Made by a program: the position numbers and the translations under genes
From: Fibrobacteria bacterium
GTDB taxonomy: Bacteria; Fibrobacterota; Chitinivibrionia; Chitinivibrionales; FEN-1185
NCBI GenBank assembly: GCA_037447435.1
Contig: JBBIGR010000002.1
Location: 128,001-192,000 of the forward strand
Direction: 5' to 3'
DNA length: 64,000 nt
In this document: positions 783-5,578 of the stretch, piece after piece
How positions within the stretch are numbered: the first letter of the stretch is position 1
Layout: every line of letters starts with the position of its first letter
The notes under the pieces: model-generated
What the model was told of the DNA's origin: nothing
The model's database searches: none
Seen by the model: the letters and a program-made list of their open reading frames with translations, nothing else

Positions 783-1014
783 CTATTCATTAGTAAACAT
801 TTGTACGTTTATTTGAAGTATCTTCATTTTTGCACGGATACTCTATAAAAATAAACTTATCCTCCGCGAAGCTTGGGATTAGTATCTTTATATAGATCCA
901 AATAAGACTTGAAAATATACGTCTGCTGCAAAAAGCAGTCAAGAGTTTCACCGAAATCATAAAACAACAATGTGAAAAAATTACCAGTTCAAATTATCCA
1001 GCGAGGTCCCATCC

Positions 1015-1836
1015 ATGATAAAAGCCCAATACCCTTTTTCTCCAAATAAATCCGGCAGTGGTCCGTTATTTTTTATTGCCGGCCCCTGTGTGATAGAATC
1101 GGAACGTTTATGTCTGGATATTGCCGAAACACTGGCAAAGGTCTCAATAAAAGAAAATGTCACGATTATTTTCAAGGCTTCCTACGACAAGGCCAATCGT
1201 ACTTCGGCCTCATCCTTTCGGGGTCTTGGCATGAAAAAGGGGCTTTCCATTCTGGGAAAAGTAAAAAAGCAATTCGGATTGCCCATAGTCACCGACATCC
1301 ACACCCCGGACCAAGCAGCCCAGGTCGCCGCAATCGCCGACGTTCTGCAAATACCCGCATTTTTATGCCGACAAACCGATCTACTGACGGCTGCAAAAAA
1401 AACCGGCAAAATCGTGAATGTGAAAAAAGGACAATTCGTCGCACCCGGCGACATGAAATACTCTCTTGACAAGGCCGGCAAAAAATCGTGGATTACCGAA
1501 CGCGGAACTTTTTTCGGCTACAACAGATTGGTTGTTGATTTTGCCGGGATCCCGATTTTAAAAAGCTTCGGAGTCCCGGTTATTTTCGACGCTACCCATA
1601 GCGTCCAAATGCCCAGTGCGGGAAACGGCGTGTCCGGCGGTAATCGCGACCTGGCGATACCGCTTGCGCAAGCAGCGGTCTGCGCAGGGGTAAACGGACT
1701 TTTTTTCGAAATACATCCGACACCCGACAAAGCCCTTTGCGACGGCCCCAACAGCATTTCGGTGAAAGATTTTGTAAAGAATGTTCCGAGAATGCTGGAA
1801 TTGCATGATAAGGTAACGGGGTGGCGAGCCGATTGA
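1015..1836 (+). CDS. kdsA: KDO8P synthase (3-deoxy-8-phosphooctulonate synthase)
   Basis: AGPCVIES, KASYDKANRTS, QIPAFLCRQTDLL, VKKGQF, ERG, DATHSVQ and CDGP motifs; the N-terminal Cys suggests the metal-dependent class. Confidence 0.96.
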   Translation: MIKAQYPFSPNKSGSGPLFFIAGPCVIESERLCLDIAETLAKVSIKENVTIIFKASYDKANRTSASSFRGLGMKKGLSILGKVKKQFGLPIVTDIHTPDQAAQVAAIADVLQIPAFLCRQTDLLTAAKKTGKIVNVKKGQFVAPGDMKYSLDKAGKKSWITERGTFFGYNRLVVDFAGIPILKSFGVPVIFDATHSVQMPSAGNGVSGGNRDLAIPLAQAAVCAGVNGLFFEIHPTPDKALCDGPNSISVKDFVKNVPRMLELHDKVTGWRAD

Positions 1837-1880
1837 GGCCCTTTCGAAGGCCGAAATTAAAAATACCCGTCCGGCAATAT

Positions 1881-2123
1881 CCAAAAGATGTTCGGCATTA
1901 ATTAAAAATAGTGCAGAAGACCCAAAAAGATGTTCAGGAAAGCATAAAAATAGTGCAGAAGAGTAAAAAAGTAATGCAGCTACCGTTTTTCTTAAAATTT
2001 TTGTGTGTTCTGTACATAAAATAGCACTTCTTGGTGTGTTTCTTACTTTGCGTTAGGTCAAATTGCCTTTTCTGCACTATTTTTTTGGATTTCTGCACTA
2101 TTTTTACCCTCATCCGAACATTC
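1881..2123. repeat. Intergenic element of direct and inverted repeats
   Basis: Two ~41-bp tandem units (1881-1920, 1922-1962), each CCAAAA(A)GATGTTC...TAAAAATAGTGCAGAAGA. The inverse motif TTCTGCACTATTTTT occurs at 2070-2084 and 2091-2105. CCGAACAT near 2114-2121 mirrors ATGTTCGG at 1888-1895. Confidence 0.75.
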
Positions 2124-2183
2124 TATCTACCGTGCTCCCGGTCTATCTTATCCAGATCGGCAAGGCGTTTCTTTGCAAACGCG
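2123..2183 (-). repeat. Displaced copy of the kinase 3' end (AFAKKRLADLDKIDREHGR-TAG)
   Basis: Codon-by-codon match to the kinase 3' end (3926-3986); differences are synonymous except L>I. Confidence 0.92.
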
Positions 2184-2218
2184 ATTGCCGGCATAAATAT
2201 TTTTCTAAGTTGGGTGGC

Positions 2219-2407
2219 TTATAAAACAAATTGCTTATCCTTTAATCTCGGAAAGGGAGTATTGACTTTTTCGACACCAATTTCCTCTAAAAAATTCAAA
2301 TATTCCTCTAAATCCGGTTTGGCAATCTTTTTTTTATCAATTTTCGCAATTTGGTCAATAAACGCCTTCTCCAACTTGTCCCATTTTAAATCAAGATCAT
2401 TTTCCAT
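2219..2407 (-). CDS. Small (62 aa) hypothetical protein, likely partner of the upstream nucleotidyltransferase
   Basis: ATG at 2407 with GAGG upstream, overlapping the end of the NTase gene; MENDLDLKWDKLEKAF...KQFVL. Confidence 0.6.
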   Translation of the reverse strand: MENDLDLKWDKLEKAFIDQIAKIDKKKIAKPDLEEYLNFLEEIGVEKVNTPFPRLKDKQFVL

Positions 2408-2936
2408 TTCCGGATTCCTCTGAGATTTCGTTGTAATACGATTCCATTCCGAATTTTTTGAAATATTCCGCAACCTTCTGTTTATCGTATTTCGCATGAT
2501 TAAGAATTTCTTTTATATCTGCAAAATCCTTAAATTTTCTTTCCGGATTATTTTTAACAGCAAACAACTTCATTGCAATTAAATGTTCGGGGCTGACTAC
2601 GGGCAATTCAAGACCTTGAAAAACCTGCCTTTTTTCAATTGATCCCAATATCGAATCAGCTGTCGCGCCGTCCACATACATAATATCAACCCTGACTGAA
2701 CCAAGAGGATGCAGAAAGTTAGAAAAAGATTCTGAACTGAAAACAGTCTCAAAACCAAGTGATGTAAGGTAGGAAGTTATTTTATCGCGATTTTCAACTC
2801 TGGTAACAAAATCTACATCCCTGGTGGCTCTTATATATCCATAGGAAAAAAGTGCGAATGCCCCGATAATGCCATATTCAATTTTTTCACGAAGGAAAAA
2901 CCCCGTAAGTATTTCGATAATGGATTTCAAGCTCAT
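2397..2936 (-). CDS. DNA pol beta-superfamily nucleotidyltransferase (AbiEii/DUF6036-like, TA-associated)
   Basis: IIGAFALFSYGYIRATRDVDF (G...DxD), VRVDIM and SPEHLIAMKL...R..KDFADI motifs. Start placed at MSLKS. Confidence 0.8.
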   Translation of the reverse strand: MSLKSIIEILTGFFLREKIEYGIIGAFALFSYGYIRATRDVDFVTRVENRDKITSYLTSLGFETVFSSESFSNFLHPLGSVRVDIMYVDGATADSILGSIEKRQVFQGLELPVVSPEHLIAMKLFAVKNNPERKFKDFADIKEILNHAKYDKQKVAEYFKKFGMESYYNEISEESGNGK

Positions 2937-2993
2937 ATTTATTTCCATTTTCAAAAACAAATTACTTGTCTTGCTTTCGCCTGCAAGACCCCA

Positions 2994-3060
2994 TCACCGT
3001 CCGTGCTCCCGGTCTATCTTATCCAGGTCGGCCAGGCGTTTTTTTGCAAACGCGCATTCT
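2994..3060 (-). repeat. Displaced copy of the kinase 3' end (ECAFAKKRLADLDKIDREHGR-TGA)
   Basis: Matches 3926-3992 with synonymous changes; weak similarity extends to ~3077 (SSHGS vs STHSS). Confidence 0.92.
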
Positions 3061-3092
3061 TAGGAACCGTGCGATGATTCGACAGTTTCTAA

Positions 3093-3572
3093 TTACAATT
3101 CTTTAACTTTGGCCTGATCGAGGAACCTTAGAACATTTTTCTTGAATCGTCCAACAACATCATCCGCCAAGCATAAAGTCCCAATCACTGTTTCCTTGTC
3201 AAAAGTAACGGCATAACCATGGGCAACAATATGCCTGAATTTTCGAAGCATTGTTAAGAGTGGAAAAAGATTAGCATCTGCAAGTATTGGTAAGCTGGGA
3301 TCGTGACCATCACTATCATTAAACATGCCTATCAGTTCAGCATGCCAAAACGATCCTGAGGGCAAAGACGCATCACAATATTTAGTAACCCGTTTCAGAA
3401 TATTTTCGACACCATTATAGCACTGAGCAAGATAGGTTGCGCCCGCAGTAATATCCGAACGCGAGACAATAGCATTTTTTTCGTTCTCAAGAATGAGCCG
3501 GATCTCTTCCAGCGTTTCATCCATTCTGGCAAATTCAATTGCAATATCTTCGGATAGATCATCTAATGTCAT
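3093..3572 (-). CDS. HEPN-domain RNase toxin (HepT-like)
   Basis: RHIVAHGY matches Rx4HxY; YNGVENILKR helix; overlaps the upstream MNT gene. Confidence 0.85.
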   Translation of the reverse strand: MTLDDLSEDIAIEFARMDETLEEIRLILENEKNAIVSRSDITAGATYLAQCYNGVENILKRVTKYCDASLPSGSFWHAELIGMFNDSDGHDPSLPILADANLFPLLTMLRKFRHIVAHGYAVTFDKETVIGTLCLADDVVGRFKKNVLRFLDQAKVKEL

Positions 3573-3834
3573 ATATCATCCTGCCTCGACGTTCGTTGAC
3601 TTCCACAAATCTTGTTCGAGGCAAGCCCGGCACAACGTCTACAGATGCATGCGCTTCATGTTCCATCATTCCCGCCATTTCAAAGAAAGAAGGGCCCACC
3701 ACTCCTTCACAAAGCAAGTCTATGTCCCGTGCATTCTCCGGGTCGGTTACTGCACTGCCAAAAAGCACGAGTTTTCTTGCCCCATAGCGACGGGCAATTT
3801 CCACACATTTGTTTATTTGTTCACTTGTAACCAT
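3559..3834 (-). CDS. Minimal nucleotidyltransferase antitoxin (MntA-like)
   Basis: 91 aa with LFGS...DIDL and VDVV motifs; AAGGAG RBS; paired with the HEPN gene. Confidence 0.87.
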   Translation of the reverse strand: MVTSEQINKCVEIARRYGARKLVLFGSAVTDPENARDIDLLCEGVVGPSFFEMAGMMEHEAHASVDVVPGLPRTRFVEVNERRGRMIYDIR

Positions 3835-3925
3835 GAATACTCCTTATCCGTTGCTTTGCAACTGGATAGGTTTAGCTGTGATCATATATGTGCGTGCACT
3901 TCGATATTTTTTATATAGTTATTAA

Positions 3926-5578
3926 TCACCTTCCATGCTCGCGATCCAGTTTATCCAGATCGGCAAGGCGTTTCTTTGCAAACGCGCATTCTTCCGACGA
4001 ATGCGTCGAACAATCGGCAAATTCAAGGTAATAATTCCACGCCTTGACCGCGTCCATGAGCAGGGCCTGGCCATAATTGTCCATGGCGGCTTTTTTATCG
4101 AGCGTCGAGGCATGATAGAACAAAATTTCTTTTTTAAAATCCGCGTTCAATTGCATGACCGAGCCGGTCTGCGACGACAAAGACGCTTCGAGCCGGTCTT
4201 TCGCCTCGTCGAACATACCGAGACGGAAATATGCCTGGCCTAAATACGCGTCTATTGCCGGATCCGAATAGCTGCGACGAAGATGCTCCAATATCTTCCG
4301 CGCTTTGTCGTATTGGCGGTCGCGCTTGAGCAGCAGTGTGGCCAATCGGATTTGCGCCTCGAGGTATTCGTTTGCCAAACCGCCCTTTTCCATCGACGGC
4401 ACCATCTGGTACATCTGCATCGCTTCCGACCATCTGCCGTCGTGTTCGAGCGTTTTTCCCCGCTCGAGGACCGGGATATTGACGCCTTGCGAAAGCCTCG
4501 GGACCCCCGCATCGAGAAACATGGTCCGCCACAATGCCGTTGCCGACATTAAAAGCGCCGCAAGGGAAACGATAAAAGCGATAAGCCCGAAATTCCGCTT
4601 AAAGGAAAACGGTACCTTCAGTTTTTTGCCGATCCCCCAGGCAGAATACGATTGAATGCATATCTGCAAGTCTTCAAGGATTTCTTTTTCCGATTTGGGA
4701 CGGTGATCCGGACTTTTCGACAGGAGCTTGTCGATGATCTCTTCGGTGAGCGCCGATATGGCCGGTCTGATTTTCTTTATTTTGGTGTATTTGCATTCGT
4801 TGATTTTCTGTATGAGGCCGGTCAGGTTTTCGCCCACGAAAGGCTTTTGATTTGTAAACAATTCATACATAACGATGCCGAGCGAAAAGAAATCGCTCCG
4901 CACATCCAGATTTCCGCCGGCCAATTGTTCCGGCGACATATAATGGAATGTGCCCACGATCATGCCCTGCATGGTATTAGAGGTGATATTCAGGGGCTTT
5001 GCCGCGCCGAAATCCATCAATTTGACGAGTTTACCGGATGTGATCATGATGTTTTCGGGCTTGATGTCGCGATGCAGTATTCCGTGTATGACCTCGCCGC
5101 TCGGGCCCGAGATTTCCACGTTATGCGCATACTGCAACGCCTTGGTCACCTGCGACGCGATGGAAAGAATGTCCCGTTCCGAAATTTTCGGATTGGAAAT
5201 CATATATTCGCGCAACGTCTGACCGCTGATGTATTCCATTTCCATGTAGAAATAACCGTTGACTTCGCCGGTATCGAACACCCGTAAAATATTGGGATGA
5301 TCAAGGCGGGCCGTGAGCTGGGCTTCCTGCCGGAAACGGATGAAGAAATCCTCTTCGTCCATGAGCGACGGTTTCAGAATCTTAATGACCCGATCGAGAT
5401 CAAACGGAATATTATGCGCTTTGTAAATGAACGCCGTGCCGCCTTCGTTGATCTTTTCTATGATCTGACAATTACCAATTGTTTTGCCGATGAAGGGATC
5501 CTGTTGATGGGCAATCGGCGACGTATCGACAATGAGTTCGTCGCCGGCATACCCGGATATCCTCGTATGCGACATCAC
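3926..5578 (-). CDS. Hanks-type Ser/Thr protein kinase with TM helix and C-terminal TPR-like domain
   Basis: VIK, HPNIL, HRDIKPEN, DFG, YMSPEQ and SDFFSLG motifs; hydrophobic FGLIAFIVSLAALLMSATALW; helical TPR-like repeats. Confidence 0.93.
   Translation of the reverse strand: MMSHTRISGYAGDELIVDTSPIAHQQDPFIGKTIGNCQIIEKINEGGTAFIYKAHNIPFDLDRVIKILKPSLMDEEDFFIRFRQEAQLTARLDHPNILRVFDTGEVNGYFYMEMEYISGQTLREYMISNPKISERDILSIASQVTKALQYAHNVEISGPSGEVIHGILHRDIKPENIMITSGKLVKLMDFGAAKPLNITSNTMQGMIVGTFHYMSPEQLAGGNLDVRSDFFSLGIVMYELFTNQKPFVGENLTGLIQKINECKYTKIKKIRPAISALTEEIIDKLLSKSPDHRPKSEKEILEDLQICIQSYSAWGIGKKLKVPFSFKRNFGLIAFIVSLAALLMSATALWRTMFLDAGVPRLSQGVNIPVLERGKTLEHDGRWSEAMQMYQMVPSMEKGGLANEYLEAQIRLATLLLKRDRQYDKARKILEHLRRSYSDPAIDAYLGQAYFRLGMFDEAKDRLEASLSSQTGSVMQLNADFKKEILFYHASTLDKKAAMDNYGQALLMDAVKAWNYYLEFADCSTHSSEECAFAKKRLADLDKLDREHGR

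What the first reader, a model, noticed from the sequence alone, without database searches (positions are those of the whole stretch)
2123..3992. Serial cassette accretion at a kinase 3' end: three synonymous variants of the same C-terminal peptide
Seen: the last ~20 codons of the Ser/Thr kinase (3926-3991) recur at 2994-3060 and 2123-2183. All three read AFAKKRLADLDK(L/I)DREHGR* in frame to a stop (TGA, TGA, TAG), differing almost only at synonymous positions. Each orphan copy closes a ~0.8-kb two-gene TA-like cassette. Inference: the synonymous divergence means each copy was once under protein-level selection, so each cassette arrived with a replacement gene end and displaced the previous one. 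Islands that restore a target gene's 3' end are established, but they normally encode an integrase and are much larger. Here the units are minimal, stacked and integrase-free. This would be an integron-like array that uses a signalling gene's tail as its att site.
Basis: partly seen in the sequence, partly recalled or inferred. Interest (0 to 1): 0.85.

Follow-up and report, generated by a model that had tools for sequence, protein, structure and literature searches.

The report
Stranded kinase gene ends flank cassettes
Two small toxin-antitoxin-like gene pairs were spliced one after the other into the last codons of a kinase gene in an uncultured bacterium, each leaving a spare copy of the gene's end behind; this looks like a known kind of recombination scar rather than a new integron-like system.

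Summary
The kinase's last 20-22 codons recur twice downstream, with almost only synonymous changes (p at most 3e-4). The copies bracket an MNT-HEPN pair (866 bp) and an AbiEii-like nucleotidyltransferase pair (810 bp). The copies are mosaic: the kinase end and the far copy share their 5' half exactly, and the two orphans share their 3' half, with the switch in an 8-nt core (p 0.002-0.03). This fits two single-crossover insertions of donor DNA carrying a related kinase tail. The integron-like reading is not supported. None of 45 orthologous loci has a stranded tail or a hit to this genome's recombinases. The nearest relative has kinase-MNT-HEPN-kdsA with no tail copy, cassette homologs lie elsewhere without gene tails, no canonical attC was found, and the two left junctions differ. 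No same-species genome or raw reads were available, so empty sites and circles are untested. Best reading: an integrase-free recombination scar, laid out like Rhs/T6SS displaced ends and icd/icdC (0.6). Rival: decayed integrase islands (0.25). This scan has noted the same pattern at other genes in other genomes (unchecked notes). Host is probably Chitinivibrionales.

The parts
3926..5575 (-). Ser/Thr kinase with C-terminal TPR region (549 aa from the ATG); conserved single-copy orthologue in 45 of 81 genomes of the order
   Evidence: Pfam Pkinase E 1e-46 plus TPR hits; orthologue search; exact protein in collection
3926..3993 (-). Tail copy K, the working gene end. 3951-3986 is identical to copy C; the 3' half is unique among the three
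3951..3958 (-). 8-nt core shared by all three copies (also 3019-3026 and 2148-2155), where the pattern of shared variants switches; inferred crossover interval of the latest insertion
   Evidence: site labels BBBKKKKKKCBCCC; identity blocks; the crossover role is inference
3846..3925 (-). Copy of a dispersed ~80-bp two-hairpin repeat that begins directly after the kinase stop; absent at this spot in the nearest relative L053
   Evidence: nhmmer profile: 82 genome hits at E up to 1e-3; window hit E 5.5e-14; L053 sequence
3559..3834 (-). Minimal nucleotidyltransferase (MNT), 91 aa, putative antitoxin of cassette A
   Evidence: weak Pfam Polbeta and NTP_transf_2; PADLOC PDC-S09 E 2.4e-7; GS..DxD motif seen in the sequence
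3093..3572 (-). HEPN (HepT-like) protein, 159 aa, putative RNase toxin of cassette A; RX4H motif present in the sequence
   Evidence: Pfam HepT-like_2 E 5.5e-19; motif read from the translation, its meaning recalled
3060..3092 (-). 33-nt spacer between the HEPN stop and copy B. It folds as an imperfect hairpin and may also hold about 6 decayed kinase codons (H-x-S-stop-E-C against H-x-S/T-D/E-E-C in relatives)
   Evidence: DNA fold z -2.45, 5 of 200 shuffles as good; homology to K weak, p 0.04-0.12; motif in 8 of 10 closest relatives
2994..3061 (-). Orphan tail copy B. 5' half has three unique synonymous changes; 3001-3026 is identical to copy C
2397..2936 (-). AbiEii-like nucleotidyltransferase, 179 aa (cassette B)
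   Evidence: Pfam AbiEii E 4.4e-8; PADLOC AbiEii weak; homologs in 17 of 80 other genomes of the order
2219..2407 (-). Small ORF, about 62 aa, no family match; a similar-sized ORF follows the nucleotidyltransferase in several homolog loci (L058, L059, L062, L064)
2123..2183 (-). Orphan tail copy C, ending in TAG; 3' half inferred to be the original gene end
   Evidence: 'original' is inference
1859..2121 (.). AT-rich element of 21-bp units arranged as inverted arms, abutting the stop of copy C; second copy on contig C93 (87% identical); role unknown
1015..1836 (+). kdsA-type DAHP synthetase I family gene, the conserved far boundary of the interval
   Evidence: Pfam DAHP_synth_1 E 6e-63; synteny

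Best explanation
This is a two-step insertion scar made by homology-driven recombination without a dedicated integrase. Twice, DNA from a related strain that held the kinase's 3' end followed by a small TA-like pair recombined into the resident kinase tail. The kinase stayed intact, and a spare tail was left behind each cassette. The favoured route is a single crossover of a short, trimmed and recircularised donor piece. That route predicts the mosaic seen here: K = native 5' + donor-2 3', B = donor-2 5' + donor-1 3', C = donor-1 5' + native 3'. One-sided homologous recombination with an illegitimate joint (HFIR-type displacement) is the alternative route within the same explanation. The addictive TA pairs would then oppose loss by recombination between the repeats. 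Shown: the repeats, their coding-type divergence, the mosaic, the cargo, the lack of a local recombinase, and a relative with the kinase end already linked to MNT-HEPN. Inferred: the order of events, circular intermediates, dependence on RecA or competence, and TA activity.
For: Synonymous divergence extends through B's 5' half, upstream of the inferred crossover, where an integrase attP arm would not be under coding constraint. Mosaic: exact blocks K/C 36 nt (5') and B/C 26 nt (3') overlap only in an 8-nt core. Runs test p 0.0025 (14 sites including the stop codon), 0.026 (12 sense sites) and 0.0023 (10 codons, one mixed Arg codon dropped). L053 shows a potential donor-type layout, kinase-MNT-HEPN-kdsA with no tail copy. 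Its MNT matches the window's at 44 of the first 45 residues and then falls away; HEPN is only 40% identical while kinase is 92% and kdsA 84%. This indicates allele swapping at this site. Left ends of the orphans differ (K/B identity reaches 3993/3061, K/C stops at 3986/2183). There were no tblastn hits for 7 of the genome's recombinases in the downstream DNA of the window or the orthologous loci. ComEC- and DprA-family genes are present. Experimental precedent: in E. coli, 56 of 60 one-sided-homology integrants were single-crossover events; 14 sequenced clones had duplicated 109-950 bp of the lacZ end (PMC3240628, passages).
Against: With three copies every site fits a tree, so the mosaic rests only on positional clustering, and the weakest test gives p 0.026. 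L053 shares K's base at 10 of 12 sense sites (read by eye), which also fits K being one unbroken allele. Shared exact stretches are short (8-36 nt) for RecA. Both orphans start within 7 nt of each other at a 6-6-6 inverted repeat; such a repeat starts in 1.3% of 10-bp windows (post hoc), which hints at site specificity. HFIR and similar events are very rare in the lab (PMC3240628). Two such events at one gene, and at no other of 3700 ORFs, need a hotspot or selection that was not identified. ComEC and DprA also rang in 10 and 11 of 14 control genomes, so they say little.
Confidence: 0.6

Rival explanations
1. These are decayed integrase islands in tandem (CIME accretion). Two integrative elements targeted the kinase 3' end, each carrying a replacement gene end like e14 at icd. 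Each later lost its integrase and everything but a TA pair.
For: The layout of regenerated gene plus displaced fragment, including tandems, is the textbook island signature (PMC4383910, PMC5704250, PMC13626634; passages). Both orphans begin at or just before a 6-6-6 inverted repeat that occurs nowhere else in the genome. The genome has 7 tyrosine and 2 serine recombinase matches.
Against: It needs two independent deletions to units of nearly the same minimal size, leaving no integrase remnant. No intact island was found at 45 orthologous loci, and there was no tail match in viral contigs, genome contigs or annotated phages. The inverted repeat is missing from L053 and the congeners, and its spacer differs in copy B. 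A left-edge crossover does not predict the internal mosaic.
Confidence: 0.25
2. This is a dedicated cassette system. A recombinase encoded elsewhere inserts and excises minimal TA circles that carry the kinase tail as their attachment site, as an integron does.
For: The units are minimal, stacked and similar in size. The genome encodes an integron-type integrase above the family cut-off on C10. A short core and an inverted repeat are shared by all three copies.
Against: 0 of 45 orthologous loci have a stranded tail (34 had at least 2 kb of downstream DNA). 0 of 10 cassette-B homolog loci have flanking direct repeats. L053 has MNT-HEPN, and L083 another TA-like pair, behind the kinase with no tail copy. 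No attC candidate lies in 1850-4000 under a strict or a relaxed scan, though these scans had no positive control in this genome. The integrase lies on another contig.
Confidence: 0.08
3. This is an assembly artefact: an empty kinase-kdsA chromosome plus a separate 1.8-kb circle, or a mix of strains, merged across the 36-nt repeat shared by K and C.
For: Public contigs break exactly at that repeat, so they cannot phase it. No raw reads were available.
Against: The array's depth (13.3) matches the neighbouring pieces (9.9-14.8). Copy B and both cassettes lie on one unbroken contig with no differences, and no joint skipping the array is listed. A 36-nt repeat is shorter than ordinary reads.
Confidence: 0.04

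Closest known systems
Displaced ('orphan') 3' ends at Rhs, CdiA and V. cholerae T6SS effector-immunity loci (PMC5361080, passages; PMC3150448, listing and abstract start only)
   Same: Main gene, then cargo, then stranded 3' fragments in series. No integrase is known; the arrays are attributed to homology-facilitated illegitimate recombination, and PMC5361080 itself notes the likeness to integrons.
   Different: There the swapped tips are different toxins. Here the tip is a conserved signalling-protein tail and the novelty is the downstream TA pair. The copies here are also mosaic.
e14 integration into E. coli icd, leaving icdC (PMC13626634, passages)
   Same: A protein-coding gene is restored by a foreign, largely synonymous 3' end, with a pseudogene tail at the far end of the insert.
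   Different: e14 is a 15-kb prophage that excises on SOS induction. The units here are about 0.9 kb, two deep, and have no recombinase.
Tandem accretion of islands and CIMEs (PMC5704250 and PMC4383910, passages)
   Same: Stacked units separated by target-gene fragments; CIMEs lack integration genes.
   Different: CIMEs descend from integrase-bearing elements with a fixed crossover. No such parent was found at 45 orthologous loci.
Single-crossover integration of recircularised one-sided-homology DNA in E. coli (PMC3240628, passages)
   Same: It produces a partial duplication of the gene end flanking foreign DNA, without an integrase.
   Different: It is a laboratory plasmid construct with identical homology of 109-950 bp. 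Here the homology is shorter and diverged.
Integron cassette arrays (recalled)
   Same: Small promoter-poor cassettes, often TA pairs, added next to a fixed anchor.
   Different: No attC hairpin closes either cassette, no intI or attI is at the locus, and the separators are coding sequence.

Membership tests
Integron cassette array | attC site (RYYYAAC...GTTRRRY hairpin) at each cassette end | tested here: not met
   0 candidates in 1850-4000 with strict and relaxed scans. The scans found no array elsewhere in the genome either, so atypical sites could be missed; the consensus is recalled.
Integron cassette array | intI and attI adjacent to the array | tested here: not met
   The intI-family gene is on contig C10. 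Neighbours here are the kinase and kdsA, and there was no recombinase hit downstream.
Integron cassette array | Variable cassette content at the same site among strains | tested here: inconclusive
   The interval differs between species but never with tail copies; no same-species genome was held.
Integrase island or CIME at a gene 3' end | Restored target gene plus displaced fragment in the same orientation | tested here: met
Integrase island or CIME at a gene 3' end | Integrase in the unit, or an intact parent element at the same site in relatives | tested here: not met
   None in the units; none detected downstream of 45 orthologues with 7 recombinase queries; no phage match.
Integrase island or CIME at a gene 3' end | One fixed crossover shared by all units | tested here: inconclusive
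   Left identity ends differ by 7 nt, possibly by about 6 codons more; there is an internal switch at an 8-nt core; a 6-6-6 inverted repeat sits at the left edge.
Integrase island or CIME at a gene 3' end | Excision as a circle, leaving an empty site | not testable with these tools
   Only assembled contigs were served; no joint was listed.
HFIR / C-terminal displacement array | Stranded 3' fragments in series behind the intact gene, no recombinase | tested here: met
HFIR / C-terminal displacement array | Each stranded copy is one whole former allele, with joints at scattered microhomologies | tested here: inconclusive
   Joints differ but lie close together; copies look mosaic (p 0.002-0.03). 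Donor and recipient sequences are unknown, so microhomology could not be checked.
MNT-HEPN toxin-antitoxin pair | MNT gene overlapping a downstream HEPN gene with RX4-6H | tested here: met
   motif definitions recalled
MNT-HEPN toxin-antitoxin pair | Toxicity and neutralisation | not testable with these tools
   needs an expression assay
AbiE (type IV TA) | AbiEii nucleotidyltransferase with an upstream AbiEi regulator | tested here: not met
   An AbiEii-like hit is present, but the partner is a downstream 62-aa ORF with no family match; the canonical gene order is recalled.

The most novel reading that the evidence does not exclude
Minimal TA-bearing circles that carry a captured piece of a host gene's tail integrate reversibly by a single crossover in an 8-nt core inside that tail. 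They are acted on in trans by a host or orphan recombinase that may recognise the 6-6-6 inverted repeat. The three mosaic copies would be attL, an internal hybrid site and attR of a live, integrase-free cassette stack. The similar scars this scan has noted at other housekeeping genes would then be one general route of gene acquisition in uncultured bacteria.
Probability: 0.1. Interest if true: 0.75.

Novelty: new member of a known kind. Interest (0 to 1): 0.32.

Why it matters
As an ordinary scar it is a compact example of how accessory genes are added behind a conserved gene without breaking it. With three copies, the position of a crossover can be read from the sequence, which two-copy cases do not allow. 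Orphan 3' arrays are usually attributed to one-sided illegitimate recombination without direct evidence (PMC5361080 calls the mechanism putative). If the mosaic holds in other three-copy arrays, it would favour single-crossover insertion of circularised donor DNA instead, and that is testable from genomes alone. If a recombinase proved to act on the tail, it would be a new cassette system; nothing found here points to that.

Tried and rejected
Degenerate tail pattern: 0 matches in genome contigs and viral contigs; no phage tblastn match. The metagenome scan gave 2 loci from 67 candidates; L054 is a chance match to an unrelated TPR protein. Rfam over 1700-4200: 0 matches. No RNA holder was listed; runs X2 and X3 cover none of the array, which shows nothing. 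A decayed tail in the L053 HEPN-kdsA spacer was not found (shuffle p 0.49-0.70). The idea that the 80-bp repeat creates tail duplications was rejected: of 82 copies, only the one at the kinase has a direct copy of its upstream DNA nearby; 5 other flags were inverted, 15-nt or edge artefacts. The repeat as an IntI secondary-site insertion was rejected: the base before its start is G in only 12 of 54 copies. No Y1 (IS200-type) transposase was found in this 99.6%-complete assembly. The C34 orphan hit (42 nt, 81%, 10.7 kb away, just behind a secreted-looking ORF) was read as a paralogous C-terminus. The inverted 21-bp element was found in no other of 80 genomes beyond a 22-nt match, and two Psychrobacter pattern hits were not followed. 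A strict pattern for the 80-bp repeat missed even the own genome and matched once in G004, so it says little about distribution. The record behind L053 is not held for whole-genome search, so whether that relative carries cassette B elsewhere is open. Literature: no paper held Chitinivibrionales + kinase + toxin-antitoxin or 4 of 6 terms on integrase-free gene-end duplication. The library lacks most subscription papers; no supplements were read.
Full report
OBSERVATION. The window's minus strand carries a 549-aa Ser/Thr kinase with a TPR region (3926-5575). Behind it lie an MNT-HEPN pair, an AbiEii-like nucleotidyltransferase with a 62-aa partner, and then the convergent kdsA-type gene. The kinase's last 20-22 codons occur three times: K at 3926-3993, B at 2994-3061 and C at 2123-2183. 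Differences are almost all synonymous: 10, 8 and 6 nucleotide differences give 1, 1 and 0 amino-acid changes (p 4e-5, 3e-4, 1e-4 against random placement). No further copy exists in the genome. No other of 3700 ORFs has a comparable orphan tail. Homolog names place the host in Chitinivibrionales, Fibrobacterota. Public contigs cover 2154-3980 in one unbroken piece at the depth of the flanks. They break at the 36-nt stretch shared by K and C, and they may come from the source sample.

THE COPIES ARE MOSAIC. Read 5' to 3', the variable sites are unique to B three times, then to K six times, then C, B, C, C, C. K and C are identical over their 5' 36 nt, B and C over a 3' block of 26 nt, and the blocks overlap in an 8-nt core. 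The clustering gives p 0.0025 with the stop codon, 0.026 without it, and 0.0023 per codon with one mixed codon dropped. Two successive single-crossover insertions predict this pattern (inference): the gene keeps the native 5' half throughout, the far copy keeps the native 3' half, and the middle copy joins the two donors. The orphans' isoleucine is the common state in working relatives (8 of the 10 closest; one ends in the same last residues as the orphans). This fits C's 3' half being an ordinary former gene end. Against this reading, three copies always fit a tree, and the nearest relative shares K's base at 10 of 12 sense sites (read), which also fits K as one intact allele.

JUNCTIONS. Identity to K begins 7 nt further upstream in B than in C. 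B's 33-nt upstream spacer may hold about six more decayed codons (H-x-S-stop-E-C; the H-x-S/T-D/E-E-C motif is in 8 of 10 relatives). DNA-level support for this is weak (p 0.04-0.12), and the spacer also folds as a hairpin (z -2.45). All copies start at a 6-6-6 inverted repeat found nowhere else in the genome.

RELATIVES. All five congeners have a ParA-like gene next (label recalled from its Walker motif). The four with enough contig reach kdsA through a secreted-hydrolase-like gene (label not searched). The closest relative found, metagenome locus L053 (kinase 92% identical), reads kinase-MNT-HEPN-kdsA with no tail copy and no cassette B. Its MNT matches at 44 of the first 45 residues and then diverges, and its HEPN is 40% identical. 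So the link between kinase end and cassette A exists without a scar, and alleles have been swapped at this site. Over 45 orthologous loci, 0 had a stranded tail, while the window's own were detected by the same test; 34 of the 45 had at least 2 kb of downstream DNA and 11 had less. Seven recombinases of this genome gave no tblastn hit in that DNA or in the window's interval (2 of the 9 candidate loci yielded no query). One distant genome has another TA-like pair right behind the kinase without a tail copy (L083; family label recalled). Homologs of the cassette B enzyme occur in 17 of 80 other genomes of the order. The 10 closest of those 17 loci show varied neighbours and no flanking direct repeats. 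No same-species genome was held, which is the main gap.

MECHANISM. Best explanation (0.6): integrase-free, homology-driven insertion, twice, of donor DNA carrying a related kinase end plus a TA-like pair. The mosaic favours single crossovers of short circularised pieces. There is a laboratory precedent: 56 of 60 one-sided-homology integrants in E. coli were single crossovers that duplicated part of the gene end (PMC3240628, passages). HFIR-type displacement, proposed for T6SS and Rhs arrays (PMC5361080, passages), remains possible. Retention by TA addiction is inference. Rival (0.25): tandem integrase islands decayed to CIMEs, as described for tRNA targets and icd (PMC5704250, PMC4383910, PMC13626634; passages). 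The left-edge inverted repeat favours it; the absence of any parent element or integrase remnant counts against it. Against it are the absence of attC candidates (no positive control) and the absence of the pattern in relatives and cassette homologs. Mis-assembly (0.04) is unlikely given the even depth but was not excluded with reads.

COMPARISON AND NOVELTY. It works like displaced-end arrays and like icd/icdC. It is not a member of the integron family on the features tested. Eight earlier notes of this scan describe duplicated tails around integrase-free inserts at rny, der, a GNAT gene, murJ, mutM and other genes in other genomes. These are unchecked AI notes seen after my reading was recorded; they show recurrence, not support. 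My searches found no paper on this locus, within a library that lacks most subscription journals. Verdict: a real feature and a new member of a known kind. Its one distinctive contribution is a readable crossover position. Interest 0.32.

Noticed in passing
window 3846-3925 (-) and a decayed copy at about 790-885 (+); at least 82 sites genome-wide; two hits in L053: A dispersed ~80-bp repeat with a sharply defined start (TTA in 54 of 54 full-start copies, TTAG in 51), two hairpins and a degenerate right end often followed by TTAG. It is intergenic, often within 30 bp of a gene end, and sometimes in tandem. It has no Rfam match at the kinase copy and no Y1 transposase was found in the genome. 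It is present behind the kinase here but not in L053, so it was gained or lost there. It could be a MITE, a REP-like element or an atypical recombination site.
   Followed up: partly
window 1859-2121; G000 C93 2594-2860: An element of 21-bp units in two inverted arms around an AT-rich core, abutting the stop of tail C. One other copy in the genome and none in 80 relatives; it resembles an iteron or recombination-site array.
   Followed up: partly
G000 C10 95-1390: A 431-aa integron-type integrase above the TIGR02249 cut-off, 94 bp from the contig start. My attC scans found no canonical array in the assembly.
   Followed up: partly
window 2123-2194 (-): An in-frame ATG four codons before tail C could give a 23-aa peptide made mostly of the kinase tail; no clear ribosome-binding site.
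   Followed up: no
window 3559-3834 versus L053 8499-8774: The MNT is a patchwork relative to L053: nearly identical first half, diverged second half and HEPN. This suggests a recombination breakpoint inside the antitoxin gene.
   Followed up: partly
window 2219-2936; L058, L059, L062, L064: The AbiEii-like enzyme travels with a downstream 60-80-aa ORF of no known family, in unrelated sites across the order; a candidate uncharacterised TA pair.
   Followed up: partly
window 2960-2993 (-): A strong small hairpin directly after the stop of tail B (z -4.09, 0 of 200 shuffles), upstream of cassette B; each tail copy is followed by a different structured non-coding element.
   Followed up: no
L030 (G007 C569): In the one same-family genome with the orthologue, the kinase is followed by AT-rich DNA and a metallo-hydrolase-like ORF (label recalled); the contig ends after 583 bp.
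   Followed up: no
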